Shown in pieces: positions 5,416 to 31,400 of a stretch of DNA of 32,000 bases (positions within the stretch are counted from its first letter, which is position 1; each line of letters begins with the position of its first letter). Both the position numbers and the translations under genes were made by a program. Source of the DNA: an uncultured Erysipelotrichaceae bacterium (GTDB lineage: Bacteria > Bacillota_I > Bacilli_A > Erysipelotrichales > Erysipelotrichaceae). Under the pieces are notes generated by a model. The model searched no databases and was not told the DNA's origin. It worked only from the letters and a program-made list of their open reading frames with translations. The stretch covers positions 1,050,001 to 1,082,000 of the forward strand of contig OW818668.1 of assembly GCA_942493105.1 (NCBI GenBank), written 5' to 3'.

Positions 5416-5483
5416 GGAAGTTCCTCTTTTTATGAGATAACTGTACTGTATCACTTGGTAAATGTAAATCATAATCATAAAAA

Positions 5484-5523
5484 TTGACAAGTTATATAAA
5501 CTGTATTATATTAGTGATACAGT
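5484..5523 (+). promoter_or_regulatory. Promoter (TTGACA-17-TATATT) with overlapping palindrome ACTGTAT-N10-ATACAGT
   Basis: TTGACA at 5484-5489, TATATT at 5507-5512, palindrome at 5500-5523. A second palindrome TGTCAATTGACA at 5547-5558 lies just before the RBS. Confidence 0.65.
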
Positions 5524-5571
5524 TGGAAACAACTTCTGAATCACCATGTCAATTGACACAAAGGAGCTTTT

Positions 5572-5874: not shown

Positions 5875-5878
5875 GTTG

Positions 5879-5905
5879 AACCCGCGAAAAGGCGGGTTTT
5901 GTTTT
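5879..5905 (+). terminator. Rho-independent terminator
   Basis: Stem cccgc / gcggg with loop gaaaag, followed by ttttgtttt. Confidence 0.75.
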
Positions 5906-5931
5906 ATCCAATTGTTTTATATGTATTTTCG

Positions 5932-5971
5932 TTGACAGAATTCCTTAACTGTATTACACTAATGATACAGT
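5932..5971 (+). promoter_or_regulatory. Second copy of the promoter/operator module (TTGACA-17-TACACT; ACTGTAT-N10-ATACAGT)
   Basis: TTGACA at 5932-5937, TACACT at 5955-5960, palindrome at 5948-5971. Leader palindrome TGTCAAATGACA at 5996-6007. Confidence 0.65.
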
Positions 5972-6019
5972 TAGATTCAACTGAAGATTATTCTGTGTCA
6001 AATGACACCAAGGAGTTTT

Positions 6020-6319
6020 ATGGATTATACCCAGTCACTTTATCTTGTTATCGCACTAATTGGGGTACTTTATGCTTTGATTTATCGTTATGTGTTTGTT
6101 TCCCGCTTGAAATGGAAGATGAAACATTCGATTTGGCTTCCATTGATTTGGGGTATATTGGTTTCTGTATATGGAATCTATTTGTTGATGAATGCAGATG
6201 CCCCAGGCAGTTGGAATGATATTGTTGGGGCCGTTATACTCATTGTGTTTAACTTACCTGTCGTTACGTTCTTTATCACTTTTGCAATCATAACTTTCTT
6301 TGATCGACAATCAAAGTAA
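6020..6319 (+). CDS. Small 3-TM membrane protein, paralog 2 of 3
   Basis: Start moved to 6020: AAGGAG at 6010-6015, and the N-terminus aligns with paralogs 1 and 3. Contains the RLKWKMKHSIWLPL core. Confidence 0.75.
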   Translation: MDYTQSLYLVIALIGVLYALIYRYVFVSRLKWKMKHSIWLPLIWGILVSVYGIYLLMNADAPGSWNDIVGAVILIVFNLPVVTFFITFAIITFFDRQSK

Positions 6320-6347
6320 ACGTGTTTAACACCAGAAAGGAATAACT

Positions 6348-6647
6348 ATGGATCTCACAGCTCTACTTATCTCAGCTTCGATGGCGATCGTTTATTTCTT
6401 TGTTTATCGTTTGTTTGCTTATCAGAAACTTAAATGGAAAATGATCCATTCGATTTGGATTCCGTTACTGTATGCCATTGGCTTTACTGGCTTTGGATTG
6501 AGTTTATTATCAACCCCGTGGTTTGGAGCCAATCGTACAGCCTTATCCATTATTCAAGTTTTAACTGAACTAAATCTGCCTGTCATCATCTTCTTTGTCT
6601 TATATGTGATCTTTGTCTTTCTTGATCAAAAGAAAGTTAAAGCCTGA
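6348..6647 (+). CDS. Small 3-TM membrane protein, paralog 3 of 3
   Basis: RBS aaaggaa. Contains the KLKWKMIHSIWIPL core. Confidence 0.75.
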   Translation: MDLTALLISASMAIVYFFVYRLFAYQKLKWKMIHSIWIPLLYAIGFTGFGLSLLSTPWFGANRTALSIIQVLTELNLPVIIFFVLYVIFVFLDQKKVKA

Positions 6648-12575: not shown

Positions 12576-12651
12576 GCCGACATAGCTCAACTGGTAGAGC
12601 AACTGAATCGTAATCAGTAGGTTGCGGGTTCAAGTCCTGTTGTCGGCACCA
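12576..12651 (+). tRNA. tRNA-Thr (anticodon CGT); integration target of the island
   Basis: Acceptor GCCGACA/TGTCGGC, anticodon stem ACTGA/TCAGT, loop ATCGTAA, encoded CCA. TGaTATAAT extended -10 at 12535-12543 upstream. Confidence 0.9.
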
Positions 12652-12652
12652 T
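12635..12652 (+). repeat. att core copy 1 (tcctgttgtcggcaccat), the 3' end of tRNA-Thr
   Basis: The 18-bp string is identical to 26541-26558. Confidence 0.9.
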
Positions 12653-12660
12653 TATTCATT

Positions 12661-12687
12661 AAACCCTTATAGAATAAGGGTTTTTTA
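12661..12687. terminator. Terminator hairpin after tRNA-Thr (element-borne copy)
   Basis: aaaccctta-tagaa-taagggttt plus T-run. Homologous to the hairpin at 26567-26592, with compensatory stem changes. Confidence 0.75.
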
Positions 12688-13794
12688 TTAGGTCATCTTC
12701 CGAATCGTACCAGAATCGTACCGCTTTTCTTGAATTTCATTTAATTTATCCACTAAAAGTAATTGATTTTGCTTGAACCAGTGACCATAAGTGTTGTTAA
12801 CCATATCTCTGGAGTGGCCTAATCTTTTTGCGATATCAAAGTCACTTAGTCCCATATTTATTAGTAAGGAAACATGGGAATGCCTAAAATCATGAATTCT
12901 TACTTGTTTAACTCCGGCAAGTTTACAATATTTGTTTTTGTGTCTTTCCAGAGTTGTTGCTGCGATTGGAACATCATAACCAAAGAGAAACCTTTCTGAA
13001 GAGAAATCTGGATACTTTTGCATCTCGTTGATGTGTGTTCTTAAGAGTTCATAGATATGATCCGGGAGAATTACATCCCTGTAAGATGTATTTGTTTTGG
13101 GAGTAGTAATTTTATGGGATCTAATATCAAAGTTTTTCGTAACATGTAGTGTTTTTTCTTTGAGATCAATGTCTCCAACTGTAAGAGCCTGTAATTCACC
13201 TTTACGGATTCCGCACCAGTACAAGACATTGAATATCAGAAAATAGTGCGGATTATCAACCACATCGATAAATCGATTAAATTCATCAAGTGTAAAATAA
13301 AGCATCTCTTTCTTTTGCTCATTAGTCTTTACGTACTCAATGGTGAATGGTGATTTGGCAATTTTGTCGTAGTTCACACCCCAAGTAAGAACGCCCTTAA
13401 AAGTCGCTTGAATTTTTTTTAAGTAGTTGTTTGAATATCCGCTTGCTAGAAGTTTGTTTTGCCAACGTTTAATCATTTCTTTACTAATCTGTGATACTTT
13501 AGTTTTCCCAAAAACTGGTAAAATGTGCATCTTATGAACTTCTTGGTATGAGAGTAATGATCGATACTTGAATTTGGGTTTTCGATCTTCAATATAAAGT
13601 GAAAACAATTGCTCATAAGTGATTTTCTCATCAGCAATATATAAGCTCTCTAAAAACTTTCGTTCTGCTTCTTTGGCTTCTTTAAGTGTCTTCCACTTAT
13701 TGCTTTCGACCTTTTTCTGTCGATATTTCCCATCACCATCGGTATAACGAACTTTGAAATAAATAGTTCCATTAGAATTTCTTCCAACTGCCAT
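12688..13794 (-). CDS. int: Tyrosine site-specific integrase (phage integrase family)
   Basis: Catalytic blocks GIRKGELQAL (R), HDFRHSHVSLLI (HxxR) and LGHSRDMVNNTYGHW (H...Y). Start set at 13794 (AGGAAGGG RBS). Confidence 0.9.
   Translation of the reverse strand: MAVGRNSNGTIYFKVRYTDGDGKYRQKKVESNKWKTLKEAKEAERKFLESLYIADEKITYEQLFSLYIEDRKPKFKYRSLLSYQEVHKMHILPVFGKTKVSQISKEMIKRWQNKLLASGYSNNYLKKIQATFKGVLTWGVNYDKIAKSPFTIEYVKTNEQKKEMLYFTLDEFNRFIDVVDNPHYFLIFNVLYWCGIRKGELQALTVGDIDLKEKTLHVTKNFDIRSHKITTPKTNTSYRDVILPDHIYELLRTHINEMQKYPDFSSERFLFGYDVPIAATTLERHKNKYCKLAGVKQVRIHDFRHSHVSLLINMGLSDFDIAKRLGHSRDMVNNTYGHWFKQNQLLLVDKLNEIQEKRYDSGTIRKMT
12703..12722 (+). repeat. Tandem AATCGTACC 9-mers at 11-bp spacing (putative arm-type recombinase sites, left end)
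   Basis: AATCGTACC at 12703-12711 and 12714-12722. The 18-bp block tcgtaccagaatcgtacc recurs at 26408-26425. Confidence 0.5.
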
Positions 13795-15870: not shown

Positions 15871-16014
15871 TTGAATGAAAAATGAACACTTAATTTTATC
15901 CGACTTCTAGTACCTAGCAACTCTCCGAAAATTTCAAGTAATTTCCTATTCCGGAAATCAGCGAAAAGACATTTTATTTGAAAATGACGTTTAGATTAGT
16001 CATCAACTAGAGAT

Positions 16015-16051
16015 CTCCAATCATGTTGAAAACATTTAGTGGAGTTTTTTT
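16015..16051 (+). terminator. Rho-independent terminator separating the backbone from the cargo operon
   Basis: Outer stem CTCCA/TGGAG, inner stem ATGTT/AACAT, followed by TTTTTTT. Confidence 0.7.
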
Positions 16052-16097
16052 AGCAAATTTGTATTAATTTTAGGAGTTTGTGTCCTAAAAACTGTAC

Positions 16098-16131
16098 TTA
16101 CATAAATATGTAAAATTCATCGTGTTATAAT
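16098..16131 (+). promoter_or_regulatory. Cargo-operon promoter (extended -10 TGtTATAAT) with upstream palindrome TTACAT-AAAT-ATGTAA
   Basis: TG at 16123-16124, TATAAT at 16126-16131, palindrome at 16098-16113. GAGGGGG RBS before the ATG at 16155. Confidence 0.55.
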
Positions 16132-16154
16132 TTAGAAAAACATGAGGGGGAAAA

Positions 16155-17522
16155 ATGACAATAAAAACAGATAATTATCGGATTATTATTAGCGATTTCG
16201 CCAAGCTTATAAGTGAAAGGAAATCAAAAGACTCTGCGCCAAAAACAGGAGTTATTAATTTCCGAGACGATCTTAAGAATGCAAAGGAACGTCCAATTTA
16301 TGAAGTTCCTCTCGAGTTACTTAGATATCGAAAAGATAATGGTCGAATAGCGAGTGACGTTTTAAGTTATGAAAGAACAGCTATGCATGATTTGGATGAG
16401 AGATTGCAGGAAACGCAAGATTTGCTTTTCAAGTGGTTGAAAGCAAAAGATGAGAAAAACACTGAAATCTTAATGAAAGACATTATAAAGAATGGTCAAA
16501 CTGAACCGTCAATAATTACATGCGATGGATTCCTAATAAACGGCAATCGAAGAAAAATGGTTCTTCAACTTTTAAACGAAAAGGACCCGACAAAATACAA
16601 GACAATGAAGGTCATCATTTTACCTAATGTAGGTGAAGATGGTGGCCAACCAACTATTAAAGAAATTGAATTGCTCGAGAATCGCTATCAATTAATGAAG
16701 TCGGGTAAATCAGAATATGAAGGACTTGATAGAGCGCTATCTATTCGGAGGAAAATTGAAATCGGAATTTCTTTAGAGGAACAGTTACTTGATGATCCAC
16801 AATATGCAGAATATAATGCAGGAGACAAGAAATTCAAAGAGATTGTAAACTCATATAGAAAGGAATTTCTGTGGCCATTAGAAAAGGTCGATGAATACCT
16901 CGAAGTCCTAAATAGATCAGGTCATTATGCTTCTGTTGAAGGTAAATGGCAATCATTTATTGATTATAGTAACTTCTTTCATGGTCAGCTGCAGGATCAA
17001 GTATATTTGGCAAAGAATGAAATCTCAGATAATGATATTGGGAAAATCCAGGATGCTTGCTTTAAAATAATCCGTAAAGGCAGCATTAATGGAATAAAAC
17101 ACAAGAACCACGAGATTATTCGAGAAATGAAAAAATTCTTAGCTGCCCCTGAAGCTAAGCAACATATCCTTAATATTGCAACAACAGTAAAGGACCTAAA
17201 ACCAGAAGAAGTTGAGGGAAAAGACATCCACGATGTTGACAAATTATGGGGTCAACATCCTGAACACAGCCAGAAACTTTCGTATAGTTTAAGCAACGCC
17301 TATGCTCACCTTGATGAACACAAAGCTGCTGAAACGCCTTTATCACTTCTTAAAGATTCATACAAGAGATTAACAAGTGAAAAGATGATTTTAGATAGTA
17401 TGAAGCCAGATGATCTTAAGGAATTTAGGAAGATTGTTGAGGATCTTGAGTTAGTGGCATATGATCTCAAAAATAAATCACTTGCATTAATTAATCGGAA
17501 AGATAAGGCGCATAAAAAGTAA
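16155..17522 (+). CDS. ParB/Srx N-terminal-domain protein with a long helical C-terminal region (cargo gene 1)
   Basis: IYEVPLELLRYRKDNGR and GQTEPSIITCDGFLINGNRRKMVL read as ParB box I and box II (GxRR arginine patch). I recognise no other domain. Confidence 0.6.
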   Translation: MTIKTDNYRIIISDFAKLISERKSKDSAPKTGVINFRDDLKNAKERPIYEVPLELLRYRKDNGRIASDVLSYERTAMHDLDERLQETQDLLFKWLKAKDEKNTEILMKDIIKNGQTEPSIITCDGFLINGNRRKMVLQLLNEKDPTKYKTMKVIILPNVGEDGGQPTIKEIELLENRYQLMKSGKSEYEGLDRALSIRRKIEIGISLEEQLLDDPQYAEYNAGDKKFKEIVNSYRKEFLWPLEKVDEYLEVLNRSGHYASVEGKWQSFIDYSNFFHGQLQDQVYLAKNEISDNDIGKIQDACFKIIRKGSINGIKHKNHEIIREMKKFLAAPEAKQHILNIATTVKDLKPEEVEGKDIHDVDKLWGQHPEHSQKLSYSLSNAYAHLDEHKAAETPLSLLKDSYKRLTSEKMILDSMKPDDLKEFRKIVEDLELVAYDLKNKSLALINRKDKAHKK

Positions 17523-19412
17523 ATGATAATAAAGCTTGGTGAATCCATTGAGTTAATCGATGATGGAAACGAACTGCTATCTTATCAGAAGAATCAAATT
17601 TTGATTTATGGCTTCCAAAAAACCACTAATGGATACAAACTAACAAATGATAAGATTATCGAAACTGTCATAAAACTTAATTCATACCTTAATGATGAGG
17701 GTATTAGTTTTAGTGCACCTGAATCCTTCAAAAAAATTGTTGACGAGAACGAAGCATCTATAAGTTCTTTTGATCAACTTAGGCTAAGGGCTTCAAACTA
17801 TAAAAAGGCAGATTTCGATGATACTGAATTCAAGAGATACATGAGGTTTTGCGATACAAATATACTCAGGAAATTGAAGCCTCACCAACTTAAAGCGTCT
17901 TATCATATGTACACAATTAGGAATGCAGCTAATTTTTCTGTTCCCGGAAGTGGAAAGACTTCGACAGTTTTAACAGCTTATGAAAAAATGAGGGTTGATG
18001 GGTTAGTAAATTGTTTAGTAGTTGTAGGGCCACCATCATCATTCTCCTCATGGAAAAATGAATTTAAATCAACGTTGGGAAGAGAACCCAATATTACTAT
18101 CCTATCTGGAATGAACAAGAAAGAAAGAGTTGATCAATATTTTGATGTTTATTCTCTTGATCGTCTGTTATTGTTGTCATTTCAAACGTACGCCAACGAC
18201 TATCAGTATATTATCAAGTTCCTGCAGCATGAAAAAATTCAGGCTTTTATCGTAATAGATGAAGCTCATTATATGAAACAAATAAATGGGAAATGGGCGA
18301 ATGCTATCTTGAAAACAAGTGATTTTGCGACTGCAAGATGCGTTTTAACAGGGACTCCATGTCCAAGAAGCTACTCAGATTTATTCAACTTATTTGACTT
18401 TATTTGGGGTAAAAATATAGCGATTTCAAATAAAGATAAAGCAGTCGTATTAAGTCTTGAGAAGCGAAAAGACTTTGATAAAGCAAGCGAAATTATCAAA
18501 AGAAATCTGGATCCATTTTTTTATAGAGTCAGAAAGAAGGACTTAGGACTTACAGAGCCATTGTTCATAGATCCAATTGTAATTAGAATGAAGGAACAAG
18601 AACGAAGAGTATATGACAGTATTTTTAAGAAGATATCGGAATTGTCCGCCTTTGATGATCCGAACAATATTGATAGTCTTATAAAACTTAAAAGTGCAAG
18701 AATCATTCGTTTAAGACAGATATTATCTTATACGGGGCTACTTAAGTCAGCCTTTACATCTGATGGTGAAAAACTCATTGATTTAAATGATCTAGAATCT
18801 GTTATTAGTAAATACGATTTAATTGAAATACCGGCAAAAATCGATCACTTATTGTCTCTAGTAAAAGAGATTCGGAAAAAGGATAAAAAGATCCTAATTT
18901 GGTCTAATTTCATTAGTACTATTGACCTAATTAAAAGACAATTGACTGACCAGGGTTATGGTGTACAGTCTATAACCGGGGAAACTCCAGTTGTAGATCA
19001 AATAGATGAAACCATTTTGACAAGGGAAGATATTATTGATGTTTTTCTCGATATGGGAAGTGGAGTTGACTTCTTAGTAGCCAATCCTGGTGCATGTGCT
19101 GAGTCAATTTCATTGCATAAAAGTTGCCACAATGCGATTTATTATGATCTATCCTATAATTGTTCACAATATCTTCAATCACTAGATCGAATTCACCGTG
19201 TTGGAGGTTCTGAAACAATTGTTTCAACATACTATTTTTTGCAATATGCTGACACGATTGACAATGATATATTTCAAAATCTTATCCAGAAAAGGGATAA
19301 AATGTACAAAGTAGTCGAATATGATTCCGATATATATACACTTGATATCGAAGTTTTCGAAGATAGAAATGATGACGACGCTACAGCGTATGACAGGATT
19401 TTTAAGAAATGA
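17523..19412 (+). CDS. SNF2-family SF2 ATPase/translocase (cargo gene 2)
   Basis: Motif I VPGSGKTS, motif II VIDEAHYMK, motif III LTGTPCPRSYSDLFNLFDFIWG, C-terminal helicase lobe ILIWSNF..., motif VI QSLDRIHRVGG. Starts immediately after the upstream stop (TAAATG). Confidence 0.85.
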   Translation: MIIKLGESIELIDDGNELLSYQKNQILIYGFQKTTNGYKLTNDKIIETVIKLNSYLNDEGISFSAPESFKKIVDENEASISSFDQLRLRASNYKKADFDDTEFKRYMRFCDTNILRKLKPHQLKASYHMYTIRNAANFSVPGSGKTSTVLTAYEKMRVDGLVNCLVVVGPPSSFSSWKNEFKSTLGREPNITILSGMNKKERVDQYFDVYSLDRLLLLSFQTYANDYQYIIKFLQHEKIQAFIVIDEAHYMKQINGKWANAILKTSDFATARCVLTGTPCPRSYSDLFNLFDFIWGKNIAISNKDKAVVLSLEKRKDFDKASEIIKRNLDPFFYRVRKKDLGLTEPLFIDPIVIRMKEQERRVYDSIFKKISELSAFDDPNNIDSLIKLKSARIIRLRQILSYTGLLKSAFTSDGEKLIDLNDLESVISKYDLIEIPAKIDHLLSLVKEIRKKDKKILIWSNFISTIDLIKRQLTDQGYGVQSITGETPVVDQIDETILTREDIIDVFLDMGSGVDFLVANPGACAESISLHKSCHNAIYYDLSYNCSQYLQSLDRIHRVGGSETIVSTYYFLQYADTIDNDIFQNLIQKRDKMYKVVEYDSDIYTLDIEVFEDRNDDDATAYDRIFKK

Positions 19413-20311
19413 AACTTTCAAATATAAAAAAACAGCGTATTAATGCTATTGTTGACTTAGTGAAATCTAGCTCATATAAGGACATAGGTAACATAAGGAG
19501 TATTTATGAAATAGATTTTCCATACTTCGAGGAAAATTTAAATTGCTTAATTCTGATTGGCATAATGATAGTTCAAAACAATCATCTTGAGATTTTAGTA
19601 GAAGATTATGATTTCACAGATATTTTAGTTTCTAAAATTGCCGACCCAAAGATTCAAATGGGGAAACTGTCAAGTTTTATTAGCCTATTTGACAATATCG
19701 ATTTCGTTCTATACCCGTCAGAATTCGAGCGAGTTATGTATTATGAAGAACGCACATTTTTGGTTGAATTTGAACTTGTAGAAATCGACAAGTCAGCAAT
19801 TGTAATAATTAATGATTATTTGAAAAAGTTAGTTTCAACTAGAAGGATGACTCTTGTAGAACTGGACAAATTAAATGAAAGGAAGAAGTTATTGGGCCAT
19901 AATGCTGAACTATTTGCATTTCAGTTTGAGATATCTGAAGCTAGTCGGTTCGGTTCAATAATCGATCAAGAAAGGATTAAGATTATTTCTGATGAATGGG
20001 TAAATGCTGGATATGATCTCATAGGGTTTAGTAAAGATGCAGCTAAAATTGGAAAACATATCGAGATTTTCATTGAGGTAAAAGCGGTACATTTGGCATC
20101 ACCAAGATTCTTCTGGAGTACTAATGAGATTGAGGTAGCCAAAACGTATAAGTCACGATACTTCCTATATTTAGTTGATGTTGACGGGTTATCTAAAAAT
20201 AGGTATGATTCAATCGTGATTATTCAGGATCCATTTGTTGCTTTGTTTAATAATGAATCAAAGTGGGAATGGGAATGCGATTCGCTTGTCTTTAAGAAAG
20301 GAGAACATTAA
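19409..20311 (+). CDS. DUF3883-like PD-(D/E)xK nuclease-fold protein with an uncharacterised N-terminal half (cargo gene 3)
   Basis: The C-terminal pattern GHNAELFAFQFE...GYDLIGF...IEVKAV...FFWSTNEIEVA...YFLYLV matches the DUF3883 layout (G..E...E / GYD / IEVK / S.NE / Y.LY.V). ATGA overlap with the SNF2 gene. Confidence 0.6.
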   Translation: MKLSNIKKQRINAIVDLVKSSSYKDIGNIRSIYEIDFPYFEENLNCLILIGIMIVQNNHLEILVEDYDFTDILVSKIADPKIQMGKLSSFISLFDNIDFVLYPSEFERVMYYEERTFLVEFELVEIDKSAIVIINDYLKKLVSTRRMTLVELDKLNERKKLLGHNAELFAFQFEISEASRFGSIIDQERIKIISDEWVNAGYDLIGFSKDAAKIGKHIEIFIEVKAVHLASPRFFWSTNEIEVAKTYKSRYFLYLVDVDGLSKNRYDSIVIIQDPFVALFNNESKWEWECDSLVFKKGEH

Positions 20312-21225
20312 TGCCTAGTAAGTATAAATTCTTCTTAGGTTATTCAGAAAATGTTCTTAAGGATAAGCGAAGTTTTCCTGATGAATCAATAGACTTGATT
20401 GTTACTTCCCCCCCCTATTCAGACAGAAGATCAAATGATTATGGTGGTGTCAAAGCAGATAAATATGTTGAATGGTTCTTGCCCATTTCCAGTGAAATGT
20501 ATCGAGTATTAAAGCCACAGGGATCCCTTATTATCAATATTAAAGAACATGTCGAGGATGGTGAGAGACAAACTTACGTTATTGAACTCATACTTGCAAT
20601 GAAAAAACAAGGATGGAAATGGGTTGATGAATACTGTTGGTATAAGAAAACAGCTTTTCCAGGAAAGTGGCCAAATAGATTTCGTGATTCATTTGAGAGA
20701 TGCCTTCATTTTACTAAAAACAAGAAATTTTTTATGGATCAAGATGCTGTAAAAGTAAAGATCGGTGATTGGGCAGAAAAAAGATTTAAATCTATGTCAG
20801 AAGTTGATTTTATCAATCATGCGTCAAAGAATAATAAGCATCTCAATAGAAAAGTGTCAAATTGGCTTGATAAACAGACTGTATATCCACACAATGTATT
20901 GGTTTTTGAGGAAGAGCACTATCCTACAAATGTACTTGAAATATCTCCTGTAACAACTGATAAGAATCATAGTGCTTGTTTTCCTATTGAGTTACCGGCT
21001 TGGTTCATCATGTTATTATCTCCAGAAGGAGGAATAGTTTTGGACCCATTTTCCGGAATCGGAACTACTGCTCTAGCTGCAGTTCTCCTAAATAGGAATT
21101 TTAAGGGGATTGAAAAGGAAGAAGCCTATAAAAATATATCTGAAGAGAACCTTGCAGATTTAAGTAACTCTCTACTTTTGAAAGAAAAGAAGAAAAAGAA
21201 AACAATCAAGGAAGAGATTATATAG
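20311..21225 (+). CDS. Beta-class DNA methyltransferase, N4-cytosine/N6-adenine family (PF01555-type; cargo gene 4)
   Basis: Motif IV DLIVTSPPYSDRR precedes motif I LDPFSGIGTTALAA (beta permutation). TAATG overlap with the upstream gene. Lys/Glu-rich tail. Confidence 0.85.
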   Translation: MPSKYKFFLGYSENVLKDKRSFPDESIDLIVTSPPYSDRRSNDYGGVKADKYVEWFLPISSEMYRVLKPQGSLIINIKEHVEDGERQTYVIELILAMKKQGWKWVDEYCWYKKTAFPGKWPNRFRDSFERCLHFTKNKKFFMDQDAVKVKIGDWAEKRFKSMSEVDFINHASKNNKHLNRKVSNWLDKQTVYPHNVLVFEEEHYPTNVLEISPVTTDKNHSACFPIELPAWFIMLLSPEGGIVLDPFSGIGTTALAAVLLNRNFKGIEKEEAYKNISEENLADLSNSLLLKEKKKKKTIKEEII

Positions 21226-21341: not shown

Positions 21342-24300
21342 ATGAAACTAGTTGAAGACAGCATTAGGGAAATTCTAACAAGACTACCATCTGAAAACTC
21401 TTGTCTTGATTACAAACAAATCCCGTATAAAAAAGAAAAGTATCATGACCTAATTAAGGATGTTATTTCAATGCTAAATTCTGAAGATGGGTACACTCAA
21501 GATAAATATCTAATTTTTGGCGTAACGGATGCGCATGTGAAAATTGGTTTAAGGATTCCAATGCCAGATGATAGCGAGATTCAAGCTATAATGGACAAAA
21601 TTCGTCCAAGGCCAGAAATTCAGTCAGGTAAACTGATATTTGAGAGTTTGGAATTTGGTTACATTATGATTAACGGTTCCAATAATGAACGAGTTTATGA
21701 AGTCAAGCATACTTATCCTGAACAAACTCACGAAATTCATGAGGGGCAAGCATTCATTAGACGTTGTACATCTACAAGAATAATGAACCAAAGTGACAGA
21801 AGACGAATTGAAAGCATAGCTATCGAAAGTACGCATTTTCTAGCGGGACAATCATTTCTGTATCCTGTTATAGGTAATCCAAGCCAATTTTCGAATATGA
21901 ACCCAATGCTCATTGCCTCTTTAATTGGATCTTGGAATGAAAAAAATCCGAATGACATATTGTTTATTGAATCATTGATTAAAAGCGATTATTTTGTTTG
22001 GACCGTAAATATCCAGACATTACTTACACAAGGGGACAAGAACCTATCTCTAAAGAATGGTGTTTGGAGTGTAAAGAATAGAAATGAAATTATTGCTACA
22101 AACTGTAAAACACTTTTTGACAATCATATTGATTCAATTGTGAGTCAAATCGCAAAATCTCTATCTGTTTCAGATCCACTTTTTGATATTCCAAATGAGG
22201 ATAGACTGATTGCTCAATTGGGTGGATCAGAGACGAGTTTATCTACTGAATTGACTCGAGAGATTGCCAAAACATTAGCGATTTTGTCGAGTAAGAAACA
22301 TATCTTTTCGAACTGTACTGTTGGTAGAGTTAAAGAGGTTATTGATACTGCCGTTTACAGCATACTAAATGAAAAGGATTGGAAGATATGGGAAACAATT
22401 AACTGGAATTTAAAGTATCTAGTTCAGGCATCTCCTGACTCATTTTTTAGAGTTCTCGAAAAGGAGATATCACAGAGTAATAACCAAATAGAGAAACTAT
22501 TTTCTGAAGTCAATGGATCAATTAGCCAACAGTTCTGTGGTTCGGGACTTATTCATGCTTTACAAGTAATTGCGTGGTCAAAAGATTATTTTTCAAGGGC
22601 ATATTTGAATTTGCATCAAATCGATTTATTAATGCCTCATAAGACATCAGATTTGCCTATAAATATTATTCCTTGGAATATTCAAACTGAGGCACCGAAG
22701 GAAACTCGTTATCAATTAATCAACTCAATCTATCGTGAATTTGATAAAGACATATGGAGCTTCATAGAGCCGCTTTTACCAAACCAAACAACAACGGTAA
22801 TCACGATTGAAAAGCCGGAATTCATTCAAGGCAATTATGATATACAGAAAATTACGAATGAGCAATATTGGGATGATGTAAATTTCTATCTTGAAATTGC
22901 GACTAAAATTGCCAAAGGTGTACCAGATTACTTATTGTTCCTCGTAAAGCTTATTGATGAAGTACCTACAGATGGTAGAGAAAAAATACTAAATCTAGTT
23001 GTCGAATGCAATGAATCATTAATTGATGAAAAAGATAGGTTCATCATCTGGGATGAATTACTTAAATTAGTTACTAAGCATCAGAAGTTTTCAGATGCTG
23101 ATTGGGCATTTGATGAGAAAATCTTAAATGAAGTCCTTAAAGTTGCAGAGTTAATTGCACCAAAGGAAGAAGCTATGATAATTTCTAGATATTTTAAGGA
23201 GGAACAATATGAACTAATTGATGATTCAAAGGACTATAGTATCGGCGAGAGAGAATTGTTTCAGAAACAGGTAGATATTGTTGTTGATTTGTATGAAAGG
23301 AAGGGATTCGAAGGCATCAAGAATCTCGTTAAATTCTCTTCTAATAAATTCCTTGTTGGAATTGCATTTGGTCAGACCAGAAGTATTTTAGATAATATTA
23401 CGGATTATACAACTTGGTATAATTCTGATTCAGAATTAAGTTCATTTTCGCAAGGACTTTTATATCAACTTTATAGAAGATTTGGGCAAGAACTAATCAA
23501 CAAAATTGATTACACAATATTATCATGTAGTAAAAAGGTAGACTTTCTAAAGCTACTAGAATTTAATGAACAGACTTGGAAAACTGTTGAAGTCTGGCTT
23601 GGGGAGTCTGTCAATCTTTATTGGGAAAGTGTTTCTGTATTGCGTAAGAATTTTGATAAAACCGAATATGCTATTAGTCAATTATTAAAAGTAAAAAAGT
23701 ATGATAGTATAATCCAAATCATAGCTAATGATATCATTAAGGGCAAACCTGCTGATCTTGAAACCACACTAATTGCACTAGAATTAAGAACATCAGAGAC
23801 ACGAGAAAGTAATACTTTAGTTACATATTATATTCAAAAAATATTCGGATGGTTGCAAAAGAATTGCCCTGATAAATCTAGACTTTCAAAACTTGAATGG
23901 AGATATTTTAACCTTCTTGAAAGTGATGTGAGACCTGTCACACTTTTTACTGAAATATCAAGAGATTCAGAGCTATTTGTAAAGTTTCTGTCTCTTGCTT
24001 TTAGAAGTGAAACAGGACAAACAGATCCAGATCACAATCAAGAAATTGATCCCCAAAATCTTTCGGTTCATGCATGGACCATTTTGAATAAATGGAATCA
24101 AGTTCCAGGCTATAACGAGAACGGGGAATTCTCAAAGGCCCAATTTAATGAATGGTTTGACAAAGTTATCGAACTAAGTTCTCTGAACGGTAGATTAAGA
24201 ATAGCATTAACAATTATTGGAAAAGTGTTGTTTCACACTCCAAAAGACGCTACTGGGCTCTTCATTAATCGTGATATTGCATTAATCATTGATATGAAAG

Positions 24301-24536
24301 AGTATGAGTATTTACGTAATGGTTATATGACAGAGGCAATAAACTCACGAGGTGTTCACTGGGTTGATCCTTCCGGTCAAGAAGACTATAAATTAGAGCA
24401 ATCATGGAAGGATAAGGCTAAGGCCTTAGAGACTATTTGTTGTCTCAGATTTTCAGAGACTGCGAAAATGATCTCAAGTCATTTCAAAGATGAAGGAGAT
24501 AGAAACCGTGCAGAAGCTGTCGAGGAAACTGAGTGA
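21342..24536 (+). CDS. Large (1064 aa) protein with an N-terminal AlbA_2/Schlafen-like domain and a ~900-aa helical region of unknown function
   Basis: The N-terminal pattern ENSCLDYKQ...LIKDVISMLNS...LIFGVTDAHVKIGL...GQAFIRRCTSTRIM fits the AlbA_2 (divergent AAA_4) layout. GGAG RBS. No terminator between it and the methyltransferase gene. Confidence 0.5.
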   Translation: MKLVEDSIREILTRLPSENSCLDYKQIPYKKEKYHDLIKDVISMLNSEDGYTQDKYLIFGVTDAHVKIGLRIPMPDDSEIQAIMDKIRPRPEIQSGKLIFESLEFGYIMINGSNNERVYEVKHTYPEQTHEIHEGQAFIRRCTSTRIMNQSDRRRIESIAIESTHFLAGQSFLYPVIGNPSQFSNMNPMLIASLIGSWNEKNPNDILFIESLIKSDYFVWTVNIQTLLTQGDKNLSLKNGVWSVKNRNEIIATNCKTLFDNHIDSIVSQIAKSLSVSDPLFDIPNEDRLIAQLGGSETSLSTELTREIAKTLAILSSKKHIFSNCTVGRVKEVIDTAVYSILNEKDWKIWETINWNLKYLVQASPDSFFRVLEKEISQSNNQIEKLFSEVNGSISQQFCGSGLIHALQVIAWSKDYFSRAYLNLHQIDLLMPHKTSDLPINIIPWNIQTEAPKETRYQLINSIYREFDKDIWSFIEPLLPNQTTTVITIEKPEFIQGNYDIQKITNEQYWDDVNFYLEIATKIAKGVPDYLLFLVKLIDEVPTDGREKILNLVVECNESLIDEKDRFIIWDELLKLVTKHQKFSDADWAFDEKILNEVLKVAELIAPKEEAMIISRYFKEEQYELIDDSKDYSIGERELFQKQVDIVVDLYERKGFEGIKNLVKFSSNKFLVGIAFGQTRSILDNITDYTTWYNSDSELSSFSQGLLYQLYRRFGQELINKIDYTILSCSKKVDFLKLLEFNEQTWKTVEVWLGESVNLYWESVSVLRKNFDKTEYAISQLLKVKKYDSIIQIIANDIIKGKPADLETTLIALELRTSETRESNTLVTYYIQKIFGWLQKNCPDKSRLSKLEWRYFNLLESDVRPVTLFTEISRDSELFVKFLSLAFRSETGQTDPDHNQEIDPQNLSVHAWTILNKWNQVPGYNENGEFSKAQFNEWFDKVIELSSLNGRLRIALTIIGKVLFHTPKDATGLFINRDIALIIDMKEYEYLRNGYMTEAINSRGVHWVDPSGQEDYKLEQSWKDKAKALETICCLRFSETAKMISSHFKDEGDRNRAEAVEETE

Positions 24537-24559: not shown

Positions 24560-25582
24560 ATGACAAACAAATTTCCTTTCGGCCAATTAGTTACTCTTGA
24601 ATTTCAGAAGGATGAATCTCCAAAAAAGGTGTTTGTTTTAGATTCATTTCCAAGTGCTGTGTATGCGAAATGGGTTATGGATACTGGAACTGTTTACAAC
24701 TTGTTACCAGTAGCTAGTGAGCCGAGTAACCTCTGGTACGGTGATGCAAAAGAAGCCATTCAAATTATTGAGAATATTTCAATCCCTGATGATTTGGGAA
24801 GTTTGTCTTTACCTGATAAGGAAGTAAACGGAATTAAGAACCGGATTATACTTAACAATATATTAAAGCCGATGTATTTCCATCGGTATGATGTCTGGAT
24901 GTGTTACTTGTCCCCAGATTTTAAAATGAATGACAAGCAAAAAAAGCTATTGAAAAAACGTTATGAACCATTGATGAAAAACTTTTGTTTAAATGATGTT
25001 ACTATTCCTTTAGAAAATAGTATAAGTTGCGATAGGAATAGGGTGCTTCAAATCACTAGTGAGCTAATTCAGTCTAGAGCGGATTATTTGATCCTTTTGG
25101 GTGATCTAGCCATTCAGTATTATTTAAGAAACGTTTTCGATTTCAAGTTTAGAAACCTCAGAGATTATTCTGCTAGATGCGGCTATGGGAAGCCATTTAA
25201 AGCTCGTATAGGGTCGAAAGATATTGAAGTAATATTATTAGCGTCACCAAATCAAATCATGGATACAAGTAGAAGAAACGCCTATTGGTACAATGCCCAT
25301 AAGACATGGGAAAATTCTGAAAAAATAGTTGATATGAGAACATCTTATTATTTCATTAAGGATCTTGAACTTGTGGGAAAATGTGATGGGATGACGCCTT
25401 ATATTTATCGAGACAATGAGTGGCAATTTGATTATTTGCTCATGGATAGAATTATTGGATACGATGAAACGGAGCAGAATACCCCATATTGGTGTGGAAA
25501 TTCTGACATTATGAGAACAGTTGAGAGAATATCTAAGGATGATGTGAAGAGAATTTTGGGAGTAAGCTTTAGTTTCTTTTGA
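24560..25582 (+). CDS. Divergent uracil-DNA-glycosylase-superfamily-fold protein with an ~80-aa C-terminal extension (paralog A)
   Basis: The order of blocks mirrors the UDG fold: KKVFVLDSFPSAVYAKW (motif A position), NNILKPMYFHRYDVWMCYLSP, ADYLILLGDLAIQ, EVILLASPNQI (motif B position). Clear paralog of 28400-29179. Confidence 0.45.
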   Translation: MTNKFPFGQLVTLEFQKDESPKKVFVLDSFPSAVYAKWVMDTGTVYNLLPVASEPSNLWYGDAKEAIQIIENISIPDDLGSLSLPDKEVNGIKNRIILNNILKPMYFHRYDVWMCYLSPDFKMNDKQKKLLKKRYEPLMKNFCLNDVTIPLENSISCDRNRVLQITSELIQSRADYLILLGDLAIQYYLRNVFDFKFRNLRDYSARCGYGKPFKARIGSKDIEVILLASPNQIMDTSRRNAYWYNAHKTWENSEKIVDMRTSYYFIKDLELVGKCDGMTPYIYRDNEWQFDYLLMDRIIGYDETEQNTPYWCGNSDIMRTVERISKDDVKRILGVSFSFF

Positions 25583-26405: not shown

Positions 26406-26454
26406 ATTCGTACCAGAATCGTACCAAATCAATTATCAAAAGCTGAATTGTACC
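26406..26454 (+). repeat. Three AATCGTACC-type 9-mers (putative arm-type sites, right end)
   Basis: ATTCGTACC at 26406-26414, AATCGTACC at 26417-26425, AATTGTACC at 26446-26454. Same orientation as the left-end copies. Confidence 0.5.
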
Positions 26455-26533: not shown

Positions 26534-26558
26534 GTTCGATTCCTGTTGTCGGCACCAT
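26534..26558 (+). pseudogene. Displaced 3' fragment of tRNA-Thr carrying att core copy 2
   Basis: gttcgattcctgttgtcggcaccat is a T-loop plus 3' acceptor plus CCA with no 5' half. The core at 26541-26558 is identical to 12635-12652. Confidence 0.85.
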
Positions 26559-26566
26559 GACACATC

Positions 26567-26592
26567 AAACCCTGATAGAATCAGGGTTTTTT
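26567..26592 (+). terminator. Terminator hairpin (presumed original tRNA-Thr terminator)
   Basis: aaaccctga-tagaa-tcagggttt plus T-run. Confidence 0.75.
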
Positions 26593-27620: not shown

Positions 27621-27742
27621 CCCAAATCGTCTGTCTCGTCATCCCGAGGGACACGATTGGGTGTGCCTAAACGTTCATGCTAGACTGTGGGGAATGCTCC
27701 ACCTGGAGCGAATACGAAGACCGTGGTGAGCTCTATAGAATT
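27621..27742 (+). repeat. Structured intergenic repeat, copy 1 (long hairpin plus conserved core)
   Basis: Hairpin CCCAAATCG...CGATTGGG at 27621-27661 enclosing atcccgagggacacga. The core 27655-27742 is roughly 80-85 percent identical by eye to 30763-30848 and includes the GCTCC/GGAGC hairpin. Confidence 0.6.
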
Positions 27743-30562: not shown

Positions 30563-30762
30563 TTTATCCCTTTCCTCATAATAAAAGCCATTACAAAAAT
30601 TGTAACAGAGAATCTTTAGATTTACATATCTATTACATATTGAAGTGAATATTTTGAGGAAGTGTGAAAGTGGATTAGGTCGACATTTATAGAGTAACAA
30701 TGTTGAAGTGGTCTGAGAAAAACTACTCAGACTTTGGCTTTGGCAAACTCACCGTTGGACAA

Positions 30763-30848
30763 GATTGGTAGTGCCTAAGCGTTAATACTAGAATGTAGGG
30801 AATGCTCCATGTGGAGCTGATACGAAGACCGTGGAGAGTTCTGGAATT
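30763..30848 (+). repeat. Structured intergenic repeat, copy 2 (core only)
   Basis: gattggtagtgcctaagcgttaatactagaatgtagggaatgctccatgtggagctgatacgaagaccgtggagag. The hairpin stem is conserved, while the loop changes from ACCT to ATGT. Confidence 0.6.
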
Positions 30849-31232: not shown

Positions 31233-31320
31233 GAGGATTGTTGGTTTTTAGATTACAGTGGATTTATAAGAGAGCCCTGTGAGGATTATCATATAAGTAC
31301 AACAGAGTAAAAAGGTTTGG

Positions 31321-31400
31321 TCGTTCCCGTTATCCCGAGGGACACGAACTCACTCAGCCCTTAAGCTAATACTCGTCAACACAGAACGCTTCCCTAAGTG
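31321..31400 (+). repeat. Structured intergenic repeat, copy 3 (diverged)
   Basis: Shares atcccgagggacacga (31332-31347) with 27641-27656, and shares gcccttaagctaatactcg with the core. GGGACAC...GTGTCCC forms an inverted repeat. Confidence 0.4.

What the first reader, a model, noticed from the sequence alone, without database searches (positions are those of the whole stretch)
16155..21225. Translationally coupled ParB-N-like / SNF2 / DUF3883-nuclease / N4-N6 methyltransferase operon: candidate unclassified methylation-linked defence system
Four ORFs are packed with zero or negative spacing: TAAATG at 17520-17525, an ATGA overlap at 19409-19412, and TAATG at 20309-20313. They sit behind their own terminator (16015-16051) and an extended -10 promoter. 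By motif reading the products are as follows. (1) A 455-aa protein with ParB box II (INGNRRKMV, the GxRR arginine patch that binds CTP/NTP in ParB-fold proteins) plus about 300 aa of unknown helical sequence. (2) A 629-aa SNF2-type translocase. (3) A 300-aa protein whose C-terminal half reads as a DUF3883 PD-(D/E)xK module. (4) A beta-class SPPY methyltransferase; SPPY suggests m4C, but m6A is not excluded. Methyltransferase plus nuclease plus ATP-dependent translocase follows restriction-modification logic. However, the set lacks HsdS/HsdR (type I), Mod/Res architecture (type III), PglZ/BrxC (BREX) and DrmA/DrmB-DUF1998 (DISARM). ParB-N domains are commonly fused to PF01555 methyltransferases in phages and plasmids. 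Finding the ParB-N module as a separate protein in an operon with that methyltransferase class, a translocase and a nuclease is therefore a distinctive arrangement. The location in the accessory slot of a satellite-like island fits an anti-phage role.
Basis: partly seen in the sequence, partly recalled or inferred. Interest (0 to 1): 0.85.

Follow-up and report, generated by a model that had tools for sequence, protein, structure and literature searches.

The report
Unnamed ParB–SNF2–nuclease–methylase defence cassette
A tightly packed four-gene operon on a small integrated island (a ParB-fold switch protein, an SNF2 motor, a nuclease and a DNA methyltransferase) belongs to a conserved gene cassette that is rare but spread across more than 20 bacterial phyla, looks like a methylation-linked anti-phage system, and matches no named system in the databases and open-access papers I could search.

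Summary

- **Gene A** is a 455-aa ParB/Srx-fold protein with no Pfam, PADLOC or NCBIfam family.
- **Gene B** is an intact SNF2 ATPase.
- **Gene C** is a tandem winged-helix domain plus a DUF3883 PD-(D/E)xK nuclease.
- **Gene D** is an SPPY beta-class methyltransferase whose closest solved relative is the m4C enzyme M.PvuII.

A relative of A is encoded in 127 of 185,579 species genomes. In the 80 loci examined, A and B are always adjacent, and all 67 complete loci carry a methyltransferase.

The methyltransferase is PF01555 in some loci and Dam-like PF02086 in others. A distant prophage relative uses a C5 enzyme. A, B and C show no compensating change when the family switches.

The nuclease is also replaceable. 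Some lineages fuse a CBASS-type HNH domain to A, others have a CBASS-type PNP nucleosidase, and others have an unknown protein.

Neighbours are defence or mobile-element genes in 6 of 8 contexts. No relative was found in viral contigs.

The cassette is most likely a DISARM/Hma-like defence system in which methylation represses a ParB–SNF2 sensor. There are no experimental data, and the component that reads methylation is unknown. The downstream 1064-aa and 340-aa genes are not part of it.

The parts
16015..16051 (+). Weak hairpin followed by a run of seven T, upstream of the operon. It is a possible terminator of the preceding island genes.
   Evidence: Sequence and RNAfold; not called by the terminator scan.
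16123..16131 (+). Extended -10 element TGTTATAAT. A GAGGGGG ribosome-binding site follows at 16144-16150.
   Evidence: Read directly from the sequence. This is a consensus match only; function is not shown.
16155..17522 (+). Gene A, 455 aa. It has an N-terminal ParB/Srx-fold domain (about aa 40-205; invariant motifs LRYRKDNGRI, TCDG-x5-GNRR, EIExxENRYQL) and a conserved all-helical C-terminal domain of about 250 aa. I predict it is an NTP-gated switch and sensor.
17523..19412 (+). Gene B, 629 aa. It is an SNF2-family ATPase with intact GSGKT (142-146), DEAH (246-249), TGTP and QSLDRIHRVGG motifs. Its N-terminal 115 aa are fast-evolving and have no known domain.
19409..20311 (+). Gene C, 300 aa. 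It has an N-terminal tandem winged-helix region (about aa 1-135), a long linker helix (149-179) and a NOV_C/DUF3883 PD-(D/E)xK nuclease domain with invariant D203 and E223-V-K225. I predict it is the effector.
20311..21225 (+). Gene D, 304 aa. It is a beta-class PF01555 DNA methyltransferase with SPPY at 33-36 and DPFSGIGTT at 245-253. Its closest solved relative is the N4-cytosine enzyme M.PvuII.
12628..12686 (+). attL: the 3' end of tRNA-Thr plus its terminator. This is the left boundary of the 13.9-kb integrated island that carries the cassette.
26534..26592 (+). attR: an 86%-identical copy of the tRNA-Thr 3' end. This is the right boundary of the island.

Best explanation
The four genes form a horizontally mobile, methylation-linked anti-phage/anti-plasmid system of a family I could not find described. 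The proposed mechanism follows; what is shown and what is inferred is marked in the For line. The methyltransferase D marks host DNA. In this window the mark is probably m4C; in other members it is m6A or m5C. A (a ParB/Srx-fold, probably NTP-gated switch or clamp) and B (an SNF2 translocase) form the invariant sensing and motor core that engages DNA. Methyl groups on self DNA repress the core. On unmethylated incoming or replicating DNA the core stays active and licenses the effector. Here the effector is C, a winged-helix plus PD-(D/E)xK nuclease that cuts the DNA. In other lineages it is an HNH nuclease fused to A or a PNP-type nucleosidase, which would act by abortive infection.
For: SHOWN. 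(1) Conserved cassette. A relative of A is encoded in 127 of 185,579 species-representative genomes, from more than 20 phyla. In the 80 loci kept for the census, A and B are adjacent wherever the contig allows. 57 loci have A-B-C-methyltransferase and 10 have A-B-methyltransferase with another effector. None of the 67 complete loci lacks a methyltransferase. (2) The methyltransferase is linked by function, not by fold. It is PF01555 with SPPY in 21 loci and Dam-like PF02086 with DPPY in 46. It is sometimes moved upstream or inverted. A distant sister cassette in prophage Javan191 uses a C5 enzyme. The window's D is closest to the m4C enzyme M.PvuII (1.3e-23), and the D12 type is closest to DpnM, so the marks differ. 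(3) Effector swapping with known immune effector domains. A variants of about 620 aa carry an N-terminal HNH domain that matches the CBASS 'Effector Endonuclease' model (8e-24), SAVED_HNH (3.5e-22), Shedu SduA (7e-18) and PDC-M68A (3e-30). Other C-less loci have a PNP_UDP_1 protein just upstream of A (Pfam about 1e-24; PADLOC CBASS 'Effector PN-superfamily' 2.9e-19). (4) Catalytic motifs of B, C and D are at least 90% conserved. (5) Context. Defence or mobile-element genes lie within 10 kb in 6 of 8 independent loci: MmeI-like type IIG, AbiEii plus TIR, DpnII R-M, TIR plus Mrr plus HicB, McrBC/LlaJI plus an AAA_21 ATPase, and integrases. Here the cassette sits on a tRNA-integrated island. (6) No relative occurs in 2.9 million viral contigs and no full-length copy occurs on sequenced plasmids or phages. 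(7) Decay pattern. B is fragmented with D intact in L009, L027, L056 and L074. D is fragmented only where B is also fragmented, in L022 and L032. This is what is expected if the methyltransferase protects against the rest of the system. INFERRED. The methyltransferase is retained in loci whose effector is a nucleosidase and not a DNase. I infer that methylation is read at the A/B sensing step and not at cleavage. Precedents: the DISARM core works with either m6A or m5C methyltransferases, and its ATPase is repressed by methylation without sequence dependence (PMC9142583). HmaA, an SNF2-NOV_C fusion, defends against T4 on its own (PMC11232893). ParB-fold NTPase domains coupled to nucleases act as modification sensors or switches in GmrSD (PMC5512222) and, from my own knowledge, in BrxU and SspE.
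Against: There are no experimental data: no methylome, no phage challenge and no toxicity test. The component that reads methylation is unidentified. No region of A, B or C diverges more when the methyltransferase family differs. That argues against a sequence-specific reader, but the closest comparisons all rest on one swap (L041). NTP binding by A is inferred only from conserved ParB box-like motifs. The A profile finds nothing in PDB sequences, and Foldseek E-values are modest (2.4e-3 against PDB; 3e-5 against BFVD). Nearly all related loci are metagenome-assembled genomes, and some fragmented genes may be long-read sequencing errors. Two of the 8 contexts are flanked only by housekeeping genes. 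Naming was checked against PADLOC v2.0.0 (2023), Pfam, NCBIfam and open-access literature only. DefenseFinder and subscription papers were not available.
Confidence: 0.62

Rival explanations
1. It is a classical Type I/III-style restriction-modification enzyme. The methyltransferase would be the DNA-recognition subunit, physically bound to a split 'Res' made of the SNF2 motor B and the nuclease C, with A as an accessory subunit.
For: The set has methyltransferase plus ATP-dependent motor plus PD-(D/E)xK nuclease logic. B gives a ResIII Pfam hit (4.1e-8). The genes are translationally coupled.
Against: Three unrelated methyltransferase folds (PF01555, PF02086, PF00145) serve the same A/B/C core with no compensating change. 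L041 and L023 share 78-81% identity in every region despite different methyltransferase folds. The methyltransferase is sometimes upstream or on the opposite strand. There is no HsdS, HsdR or Mod-type architecture, and no NCBIfam or PADLOC Type I/III hit. The methyltransferase is retained when the effector is a nucleosidase.
Confidence: 0.1
2. It is a mobile-element establishment or anti-restriction module and not host defence. The methyltransferase would protect the island's or a helper's DNA on entry, and the ParB-like and SNF2 proteins would remodel or clear host factors, as proposed for polyvalent proteins of phages and conjugative elements.
For: ParB-like domains, SNF2 ATPases and N6A methylases are hub domains of polyvalent proteins (PMC5512222). 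In this window the cassette sits on an integrative island. A sister cassette sits at the end of a prophage record.
Against: No relative of A occurs in 2.9 million viral contigs, and no full-length copy occurs on 72,556 plasmids or 50,697 phages. In some loci the cassette lies between housekeeping genes with no mobile-element genes nearby. It recruits CBASS-type toxic effectors, HNH and PNP, which an establishment module would not need.
Confidence: 0.06
3. It is two independent units that merely travel together: a solitary or Type II-like methyltransferase and a methylation-independent A-B-effector abortive-infection system.
For: A, B and C are indifferent to methyltransferase family. HmaA-type SNF2-NOV_C proteins defend without their methylase (PMC11232893). 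In Javan191 a Type II-like REase gene also flanks the cassette and may pair with the C5 methylase.
Against: All 67 complete loci carry a methyltransferase directly abutting the cassette, despite repeated replacement and repositioning. D is lost only where B is also broken. The genes are translationally coupled here (TAATG).
Confidence: 0.12
4. It is a non-defence chromosomal function, for example methyl-directed repair, chromosome organisation or epigenetic regulation using a ParB-like clamp and an SNF2 remodeller.
For: ParB proteins and SNF2 ATPases have housekeeping roles. NCBIfam's best hit for B is a pilus-expression-regulating Snf2 helicase, far below its cut-off (60.9 bits against 1100).
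Against: The cassette is rare (about 0.07% of species), and its distribution across phyla is patchy although sequence identity between phyla is high (about 44% for A). That pattern indicates horizontal transfer. It has defence-island and mobile-element neighbours, toxic effector domains, and no ParA partner or ParB HTH/dimerisation domains.
Confidence: 0.03

Closest known systems
Hma / Type-1 BREX-related (BR) systems (HmaA SNF2-NOV_C fusion, HmaB DUF1156 methyltransferase, HmaC DUF499 ATPase)
   Same: Both combine an SNF2 ATPase, a DUF3883/NOV_C PD-(D/E)xK nuclease and a DNA methyltransferase in one defence-island operon. The nuclease can be displaced by other nuclease families (PMC11232893; PMC12839542).
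   Different: Here SNF2 and NOV_C are separate proteins, and C carries its own tandem winged-helix domain. The methyltransferase is a small PF01555, PF02086 or PF00145 enzyme, not DUF1156. There is no DUF499 ATPase or BrxA/BrxB-like protein; a ParB-fold protein takes the third place. B matches the HmaA model only over its helicase C-terminal lobe (5.1e-10).
DISARM (DrmA, DrmB, DrmC, DrmD/DrmE, DrmMI/DrmMII)
   Same: Both are multi-gene, methylation-linked systems in which a conserved core accepts either an adenine or a cytosine methyltransferase. In DISARM, methylation represses the core and no specific sequence triggers it. Class 1 DISARM includes an SNF2 helicase, DrmD (PMC9142583).
   Different: There is no DrmA/DrmB (DUF1998) core and no PLD nuclease. 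B matches DrmD models only over the C-terminal helicase lobe (2.1e-10; NCBIfam 44.9 bits against a cut-off of 610). DISARM has no ParB-fold protein.
GmrSD / BrxU / SspE (DUF262 ParB-like NTPase fused to an HNH/DUF1524 nuclease)
   Same: A ParB/Srx-fold nucleotide-binding domain is coupled to a nuclease and is involved in judging DNA modification state. The HNH-A fusion variants found here are the closest architectural parallel.
   Different: Those are single-protein, modification-dependent (Type IV) or phosphorothioate-sensing enzymes with no cognate methyltransferase of this kind and no SNF2 partner. A does not match DUF262 in Pfam. The HNH here is N-terminal and of the CBASS Cap5/Shedu type.
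Zorya type I ZorD and Dpd DpdE (SNF2 ATPases of defence systems); DpdB and DndB (ParB-fold proteins of DNA-modification systems)
   Same: The best PADLOC hits for B are ZorD (6.5e-23) and DpdE (8.4e-19). Dpd and Dnd also pair a ParB-fold protein with a DNA-modification pathway (PMC10853773; the DpdB point is from my own knowledge).
   Different: There are no ZorA/B/C, no TGT/DpdA and no DndACDE. A hits no DpdB or DndB model in PADLOC. The modification here is simple methylation.
ParB-methyltransferase fusions of phages and plasmids (e.g. B. cereus Bce_0392) and chromosomal/plasmid ParB partition proteins
   Same: They share the ParB-N fold. Residues 44-202 of A align with annotated ParB/RepB/Spo0J proteins, and Foldseek hits include ParB-methylase fusions. 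A ParB domain is associated with a DNA methyltransferase.
   Different: A is a separate protein with a unique, conserved 250-aa helical C-terminal domain. It has no HTH or parS-binding domain and no ParA partner, and it is always paired with an SNF2 ATPase. The cassette is absent from viral contigs.
PD-T4-1 (single-gene DUF3883 defence protein, Vassallo et al. 2022)
   Same: The nuclease domain of C matches the PD-T4-1 model (1.7e-12). This shows that this nuclease family acts in validated anti-phage defence.
   Different: The match covers only the nuclease domain (aa 144-260). PD-T4-1 works alone, without the SNF2, ParB-like or methyltransferase partners.

Membership tests
Type I restriction-modification | HsdS specificity subunit, HsdM methyltransferase and HsdR (SF2 helicase-nuclease) subunit | tested here: not met
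   There are no HsdS, HsdM or HsdR hits in Pfam, PADLOC or NCBIfam for any of the six proteins. D is a PF01555 beta-class enzyme.
Type III restriction-modification | Mod (methyltransferase with an internal TRD that recognises the site) in complex with Res (SF2 helicase fused to a PD-(D/E)xK nuclease) | tested here: not met
   B gives only a generic ResIII helicase-lobe hit (4.1e-8). B is of SNF2 type, the nuclease is a separate protein, and D matches Type II and orphan methyltransferase models. Methyltransferase fold swapping argues against an obligate Mod-Res interface.
DISARM | DrmA helicase plus DrmB (DUF1998) core, usually with a DrmC PLD nuclease | tested here: not met
   There is only a weak partial DrmA hit on the helicase C lobe of B (2.6e-4), and no DUF1998 or PLD protein in the cassette or in related loci.
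BREX | PglZ phosphatase and BrxC/PglY ATPase with a PglX methyltransferase | tested here: not met
   There are no PglZ, BrxC or PglX hits. B hits BrxHI/BrxHII models only over the helicase C lobe (1.4e-10).
Hma / BR type 1 | HmaA: SNF2 helicase fused to a NOV_C nuclease | tested here: inconclusive
   The same two domains are present, but as two proteins (B and C). B matches the HmaA model only at aa 451-594 (5.1e-10).
Hma / BR type 1 | HmaB (DUF1156 methyltransferase) and HmaC (DUF499 ATPase) | tested here: not met
   Neither domain is found in the window cassette or in any of the Pfam-annotated related loci.
ParB/Srx superfamily (fold level) | ParB-N alpha/beta fold with the conserved arginine-rich GxxRR pocket | tested here: met
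   Foldseek hits the pNOB8 ParB-N domain (probability 1.00) and BFVD ParB/Srx/Spo0J/DdrB proteins. tblastn aligns A with annotated ParB proteins. Weak ddrB-ParB HMM hits fall on the motif region. G130-N-R-R133 and E175-N176 are invariant.
ParABS partition ParB | parS-binding HTH domain, C-terminal dimerisation domain, ParA partner gene; CTP binding and hydrolysis | tested here: not met
   No ParB HTH or ParBc Pfam hit. No ParA gene is adjacent in any locus. CTP binding cannot be tested with these tools.
GmrSD / BrxU / SspE | DUF262 (DGQQR-type ParB-like) domain fused to a DUF1524/HNH nuclease in one protein | tested here: not met
   No DUF262 or DUF1524 hits for A or its relatives. Some relatives carry an N-terminal HNH of a different type.
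Beta-class N4/N6 DNA methyltransferases (PF01555) | Motif IV (S/D)PP(Y/F) N-terminal to motif I FxGxG; match above the Pfam gathering score | tested here: met
   151.2 bits against a cut-off of 26.7. SPPY lies at 33-36 and DPFSGIGTT at 245-253. The best solved relative is the m4C enzyme M.PvuII at 1.3e-23. The base actually methylated cannot be tested here.
SNF2 family ATPases | SNF2-related N lobe with Walker A and DExH, plus a Helicase_C lobe with motif VI arginines | tested here: met
   SNF2-rel_dom scores 59.5 bits (cut-off 24.9) and Helicase_C 34.2 bits (cut-off 23.5). GSGKT, DEAH and QSLDRIHRVGG are conserved in at least 90% of 68 homologues.

The most novel reading that the evidence does not exclude
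The A-B pair is a new kind of sequence-independent methyl-mark sensor. A ParB-fold, NTP-gated clamp would work with an SNF2 translocase that tracks DNA. The complex would be switched off by any major-groove methyl group (m4C, m6A or m5C) and would otherwise license a plug-in effector. Some of those effectors do not touch DNA at all (the PNP nucleosidase). That would make it a methylation-gated abortive-infection system and not a restriction enzyme.
Probability: 0.3. Interest if true: 0.85.

Novelty: new variant of a known kind. Interest (0 to 1): 0.74.

Why it matters
If confirmed, this adds a defence system with a component set not described before. The set is a ParB/Srx-fold protein, an SNF2 motor, a plug-in effector and a plug-in methyltransferase.

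It would also give a function to a well-conserved orphan protein family. That family has about 1,400 or more members, about 44% identity between phyla, and no Pfam family.

The cassette offers a compact, four-gene model for an open question raised by DISARM and BREX: how can a defence core tell methylated self from unmethylated non-self without a dedicated sequence reader, and with chemically different marks?

It also extends the emerging theme of ParB-fold nucleotide switches outside chromosome segregation. The effector swaps (NOV_C, CBASS-type HNH, CBASS-type PNP) link restriction-modification logic to abortive-infection effectors.

Tried and rejected
- **A in sequence libraries:** Pfam, PADLOC, NCBIfam and PHROGs scans of A gave nothing significant. 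The A family profile against all PDB sequences gave 0 hits even at E of 10 or less. Fold-level evidence was needed instead.
- **Same-mark hypothesis:** I considered that both methyltransferase families might write the same mark, as DpnM and DpnA both do at GATC. I rejected this as the main explanation. The window's D is closest to m4C enzymes (M.PvuII) and only weakly similar to DpnA. The cassette methyltransferases share only 23-31% local identity with the DpnII-system methyltransferases in L088.
- **C as the methylation reader:** I considered that the fast-evolving winged-helix domain of C might be the specificity reader that co-varies with the methyltransferase. This is not supported. The C N-domain is 81% identical between L041 (D12) and L023 (PF01555), and the group means do not differ.
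- **Downstream genes:** I considered that the 1064-aa SLFN_AlbA_2 protein and the 340-aa protein might belong to the system. I rejected this because no relatives occur in any of 87 related loci.
- **C-less loci:** I considered that these might have a nuclease downstream of D. None is conserved there; the replacement genes lie upstream of A or are fused to it.
- **Literature:** searches for the gene combination found no description. One search failed on term syntax. A weak PD-Lambda-5_A hit from one distant A relative (5e-5) led nowhere useful.
- **Other:** Rfam found only tRNAs in the window. The source organism could not be named, because the cluster look-up gave no names.

Full report
**1. 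Checking the observation**

- A, 16155-17522 (455 aa)
- B, 17523-19412 (629 aa)
- C, 19409-20311 (300 aa)
- D, 20311-21225 (304 aa)

The quoted junctions are literal: TAAATG at 17520-17525, ATGA at 19409-19412, and TAATG at 20309-20313. Upstream there is a TGTTATAAT extended -10 at 16123-16131 and a GAGGGGG ribosome-binding site.

The proposed terminator at 16015-16051 is a weak hairpin followed by T7. RNAfold gives -13.1 kcal/mol for 16005-16060. The consensus scan did not call it.

Pfam confirms SNF2-rel_dom plus Helicase_C for B, NOV_C (DUF3883) for the C-terminal half of C, and N6_N4_Mtase for D at 5.5e-44. A gave no significant hit in Pfam, PADLOC, NCBIfam or PHROGs.

**2. The island**

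A tRNA-Thr gene (12576-12651) is followed by a tyrosine integrase on the minus strand, an Xre-type repressor, a DnaD-like helicase loader (phrog_5708, 5.5e-46) and a small protein with a weak terminase-small-subunit hit.

The 3' end of the tRNA (12628-12686) is repeated at 26534-26592 with 86% identity. GC content falls from about 0.40 to about 0.33 at 13 kb. The cassette therefore sits in a 13.9-kb integrated element. 'Satellite-like' is plausible but not demonstrated.

**3. Protein A is a ParB/Srx-fold protein of a large orphan family**

A word-indexed search found at least 1,404 homologues of about 466 aa, with about 44% identity across phyla. None carries a Pfam domain or an informative name. 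An exhaustive HMMER search of 1.84 billion cluster representatives gave 1,640 proteins at E of 1e-3 or less and 124 at 1e-30 or less.

The alignment shows invariant motifs:
- LRYRKDNGRI (R57, R59, K60, N62, R64)
- GQxEP-x-IITCDG-x5-GNRR (G130-R133)
- EIExxENRYQL (E170-L180)

By my reading, these match the spacing of ParB boxes I to III.

The AlphaFold model is confident (pLDDT 89.9). Four lines of evidence support the fold:
- Its only meaningful Foldseek hits in the PDB are the pNOB8 ParB N-domain structures (probability 1.00, E 2.4e-3).
- Against BFVD, the named hits are almost all ParB, Sulfiredoxin, Spo0J or DdrB-like proteins, or ParB-methylase fusions.
- tblastn aligns residues 44-202 with annotated ParB/RepB/Spo0J plasmid genes (27-30% identity, E about 1e-6).
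- Weak ddrB-ParB Pfam hits fall on the GNRR region in several relatives.

The ParB-N assignment is therefore supported. The C-terminal 250 residues are all-helical, conserved and have no detectable relatives. NTP binding is inferred, not shown.

**4. Proteins B, C and D**

- **B** keeps GSGKT, DEAH, TGTP and QSLDRIHRVGG in at least 90% of 68 homologues. Its best defence-model matches are ZorD (6.5e-23) and DpdE (8.4e-19). All of its NCBIfam matches are far below their cut-offs, so B is a distinct SNF2 subfamily.
- **C** evolves much faster, with 32% identity to its nearest relative, but keeps D203 and E223-V-K225 invariant. Its model (pLDDT 90.8) has two winged-helix-like units, a long helix and a PD-(D/E)xK domain. 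Foldseek matches SPARDA DREN nucleases, Hjc, R.SwaI and HinP1I for the nuclease domain. It matches MukE/JetB, STK19 and SelB tandem winged helices for the N-terminal half.
- **D** has SPPY then DPFSGIGTT, the beta-class order. Its closest solved relative is the m4C enzyme M.PvuII (1.3e-23, full length), followed by other m4C enzymes. Adenine enzymes score much lower. m4C is the better guess but is unproven.

**5. The cassette is conserved**

Pfam-annotated contexts of eight independent homologues of A all show A, then an SNF2 protein of about 630 aa, then a NOV_C protein of about 300-320 aa, then a methyltransferase.

A scan of one genome per species (185,579 species) found 127 loci encoding a relative of A. 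They come from more than 20 phyla, and nearly all are metagenome-assembled genomes.

My census of 80 of these loci found:
- A and B are adjacent wherever the contig allows.
- 57 loci have A-B-C-methyltransferase.
- 10 loci have A-B-methyltransferase without C.
- None of the 67 complete loci lacks a methyltransferase.
- The window's downstream 1064-aa and 340-aa proteins have no relatives in any locus, so they are not part of the system.

**6. The methyltransferase is interchangeable**

It is PF01555, with SPPY in at least 90% of the sequences aligned, in 21 loci. It is Dam-like PF02086, likewise with DPPY, in 46 loci. The D12 enzymes are most like DpnM.

The gene is sometimes moved upstream of A (candidate-phyla-radiation loci) or inverted.

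A more distant sister cassette lies at the end of Streptococcus prophage Javan191:
- an A-like protein (hhalign probability 99.3%)
- a B-like protein (34% identity, E 5e-89)
- a full-length C-like protein (probability 100%)
- a divergently transcribed C5 methyltransferase
- a Type II-like REase gene

Three chemically different marks therefore accompany one core.

I used the swaps as a natural experiment. At matched divergence of the B core, no region of A, B or C is less similar between loci with different methyltransferase families than between loci with the same family. L041 (D12) and L023 (PF01555) share 78-81% identity in every region, including the winged-helix domain of C. This argues against a sequence-specific reader that co-evolves with the methyltransferase. 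The closest comparisons all rest on one swap, so the argument is limited.

**7. The nuclease is a swappable effector**

The ten C-less loci fall into three clades of the A tree:
- In one clade, A carries an N-terminal extension of about 165 aa. The same extension recurs in the global search as proteins of about 620 aa. It matches the CBASS 'Effector Endonuclease' model (8e-24), SAVED_HNH (3.5e-22), Shedu SduA (7e-18) and PDC-M68A (3e-30).
- In a second clade, a PNP_UDP_1 protein sits directly upstream of A (Pfam about 1e-24). It matches the CBASS 'Effector PN-superfamily' model (2.9e-19).
- In a third clade, an unknown protein of about 300 aa takes that position.

The methyltransferase is retained in all of them.

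**8. Context**

Within 10 kb of the cassette, six of eight independent loci carry defence or mobile-element genes:
- an MmeI-like type IIG enzyme
- AbiEii plus TIR
- a DpnII R-M system plus a Rep gene
- TIR plus Mrr plus HicB
- McrBC/LlaJI plus an AAA_21 ATPase plus integrases
- integrase, Rep and FtsK

Two loci are flanked only by housekeeping genes. No relative of A is found in 2.9 million viral contigs. No full-length copy occurs on 72,556 plasmids or 50,697 phage records.

B is fragmented while D is intact in four loci. D is fragmented only where B is also fragmented. The numbers are small, and some fragmentation may be long-read error, but this is the order of decay expected if D protects against the rest of the system.

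**9. Mechanism**

The following points are shown:
- the cassette is conserved;
- the motor, nuclease and methyltransferase motifs are intact;
- a methyltransferase is always present but its family is interchangeable;
- the effector is interchangeable, and the replacements are known immune effector domains;
- the neighbours are defence or mobile-element genes in most contexts.

The following steps are inferred:
- D marks self DNA.
- A and B form the sensing and motor core.
- Methylation represses the core.
- Unmethylated DNA licenses the effector, which here is nuclease C.

The methyltransferase is kept even where the effector is a nucleosidase and not a DNase. For that reason I place the methylation read-out at the A/B step.

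Three precedents bear on this:
- The DISARM core works with m6A or m5C methyltransferases, and its ATPase is repressed by methylation without sequence dependence (PMC9142583).
- HmaA, an SNF2-NOV_C fusion, defends alone (PMC11232893).
- ParB-fold NTPase domains regulate fused nucleases in GmrSD (PMC5512222).

I put about 0.8 on 'defence system' and about 0.5 on this specific mechanism. The overall confidence for the combined statement is about 0.62.

**10. Comparison with known systems and novelty**

The defining components of Type I and Type III R-M, DISARM, BREX, Zorya and Dpd are absent (and the context calls).

Hma/BR type 1 is the closest named system. It needs DUF1156 and DUF499, which are absent here, and it fuses what here are two proteins (PMC11232893; PMC12839542).

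Searches of 7.7 million open-access papers and bioRxiv for the gene combination found no description.

There are limits to this check. PADLOC is the 2023 release, DefenseFinder was not available, and subscription literature was not searched.

I rate the finding a new variant of a known kind: a methylation-linked multi-gene defence system with a new core component.

Noticed in passing
window 21342-24536 (+) and 24560-25582 (+): A 1064-aa protein sits directly downstream of the cassette. It has an N-terminal Schlafen AlbA_2 domain (1.1e-8) and a strong match to the unknown-function phage family phrog_18693 over aa 181-1052 (2.9e-64). A 340-aa protein with no hits follows it. No terminator was detected in the 117-nt gap after D. 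These may be a separate accessory or defence gene pair of the island. They never co-occur with the cassette elsewhere.
   Followed up: partly
L092 (Streptococcus phage Javan191, MK448700.1) 1-6607: This is a distant sister cassette: a BanI/DpnII-like Type II REase, an A-like protein, SNF2, NOV_C and a divergent C5 methyltransferase. The ENRYQ motif of A is replaced by ETTYQ. It is unclear whether the REase pairs with the C5 methylase as an ordinary Type II system that hosts the A-B-C trio.
   Followed up: partly
L077 3125-4045, L082 6924-7838, L085 6922-7827: A conserved protein of about 300 aa with no Pfam or PADLOC match (it begins ...IIQLLQFCSWK...) lies immediately upstream of A in Flavobacteriales/Fluviicola loci that lack the NOV_C gene. 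It is a candidate new effector.
   Followed up: partly
window 27644-27734 and 30752-30842 (also 27629-27656 / 31320-31347): A 91-nt direct repeat (82% identity) lies outside the island, about 3.1 kb apart. A related 28-nt repeat also occurs. There is no Rfam match at gathering threshold. It could be an unannotated RNA element or leader.
   Followed up: no
window 12705-12722 and 26408-26425: An exact 18-nt repeat (TCGTACCAGAATCGTACC) occurs twice. One copy lies inside the 3' end of the integrase gene. The other lies about 110 nt inside attR. It may be a recombination-directionality or arm-type site, or a remnant of an earlier integrase gene.
   Followed up: no
L009, L022, L027, L032, L044, L056, L073, L074 (gene B region): The SNF2 gene is split into 2-3 ORFs in eight related loci. 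The methyltransferase is also broken only in L022 and L032. This could be real pseudogenisation of a costly system, or indel errors in long-read metagenome-assembled genomes.
   Followed up: partly
L005 8826-9284 and 20067-21203: In this Firmicute-like contig the cassette lies just downstream of smpB, with an integrase, a Rep gene and an FtsK-like gene on the far side. This suggests another integrative element carrying the cassette, possibly at the tmRNA locus.
   Followed up: no
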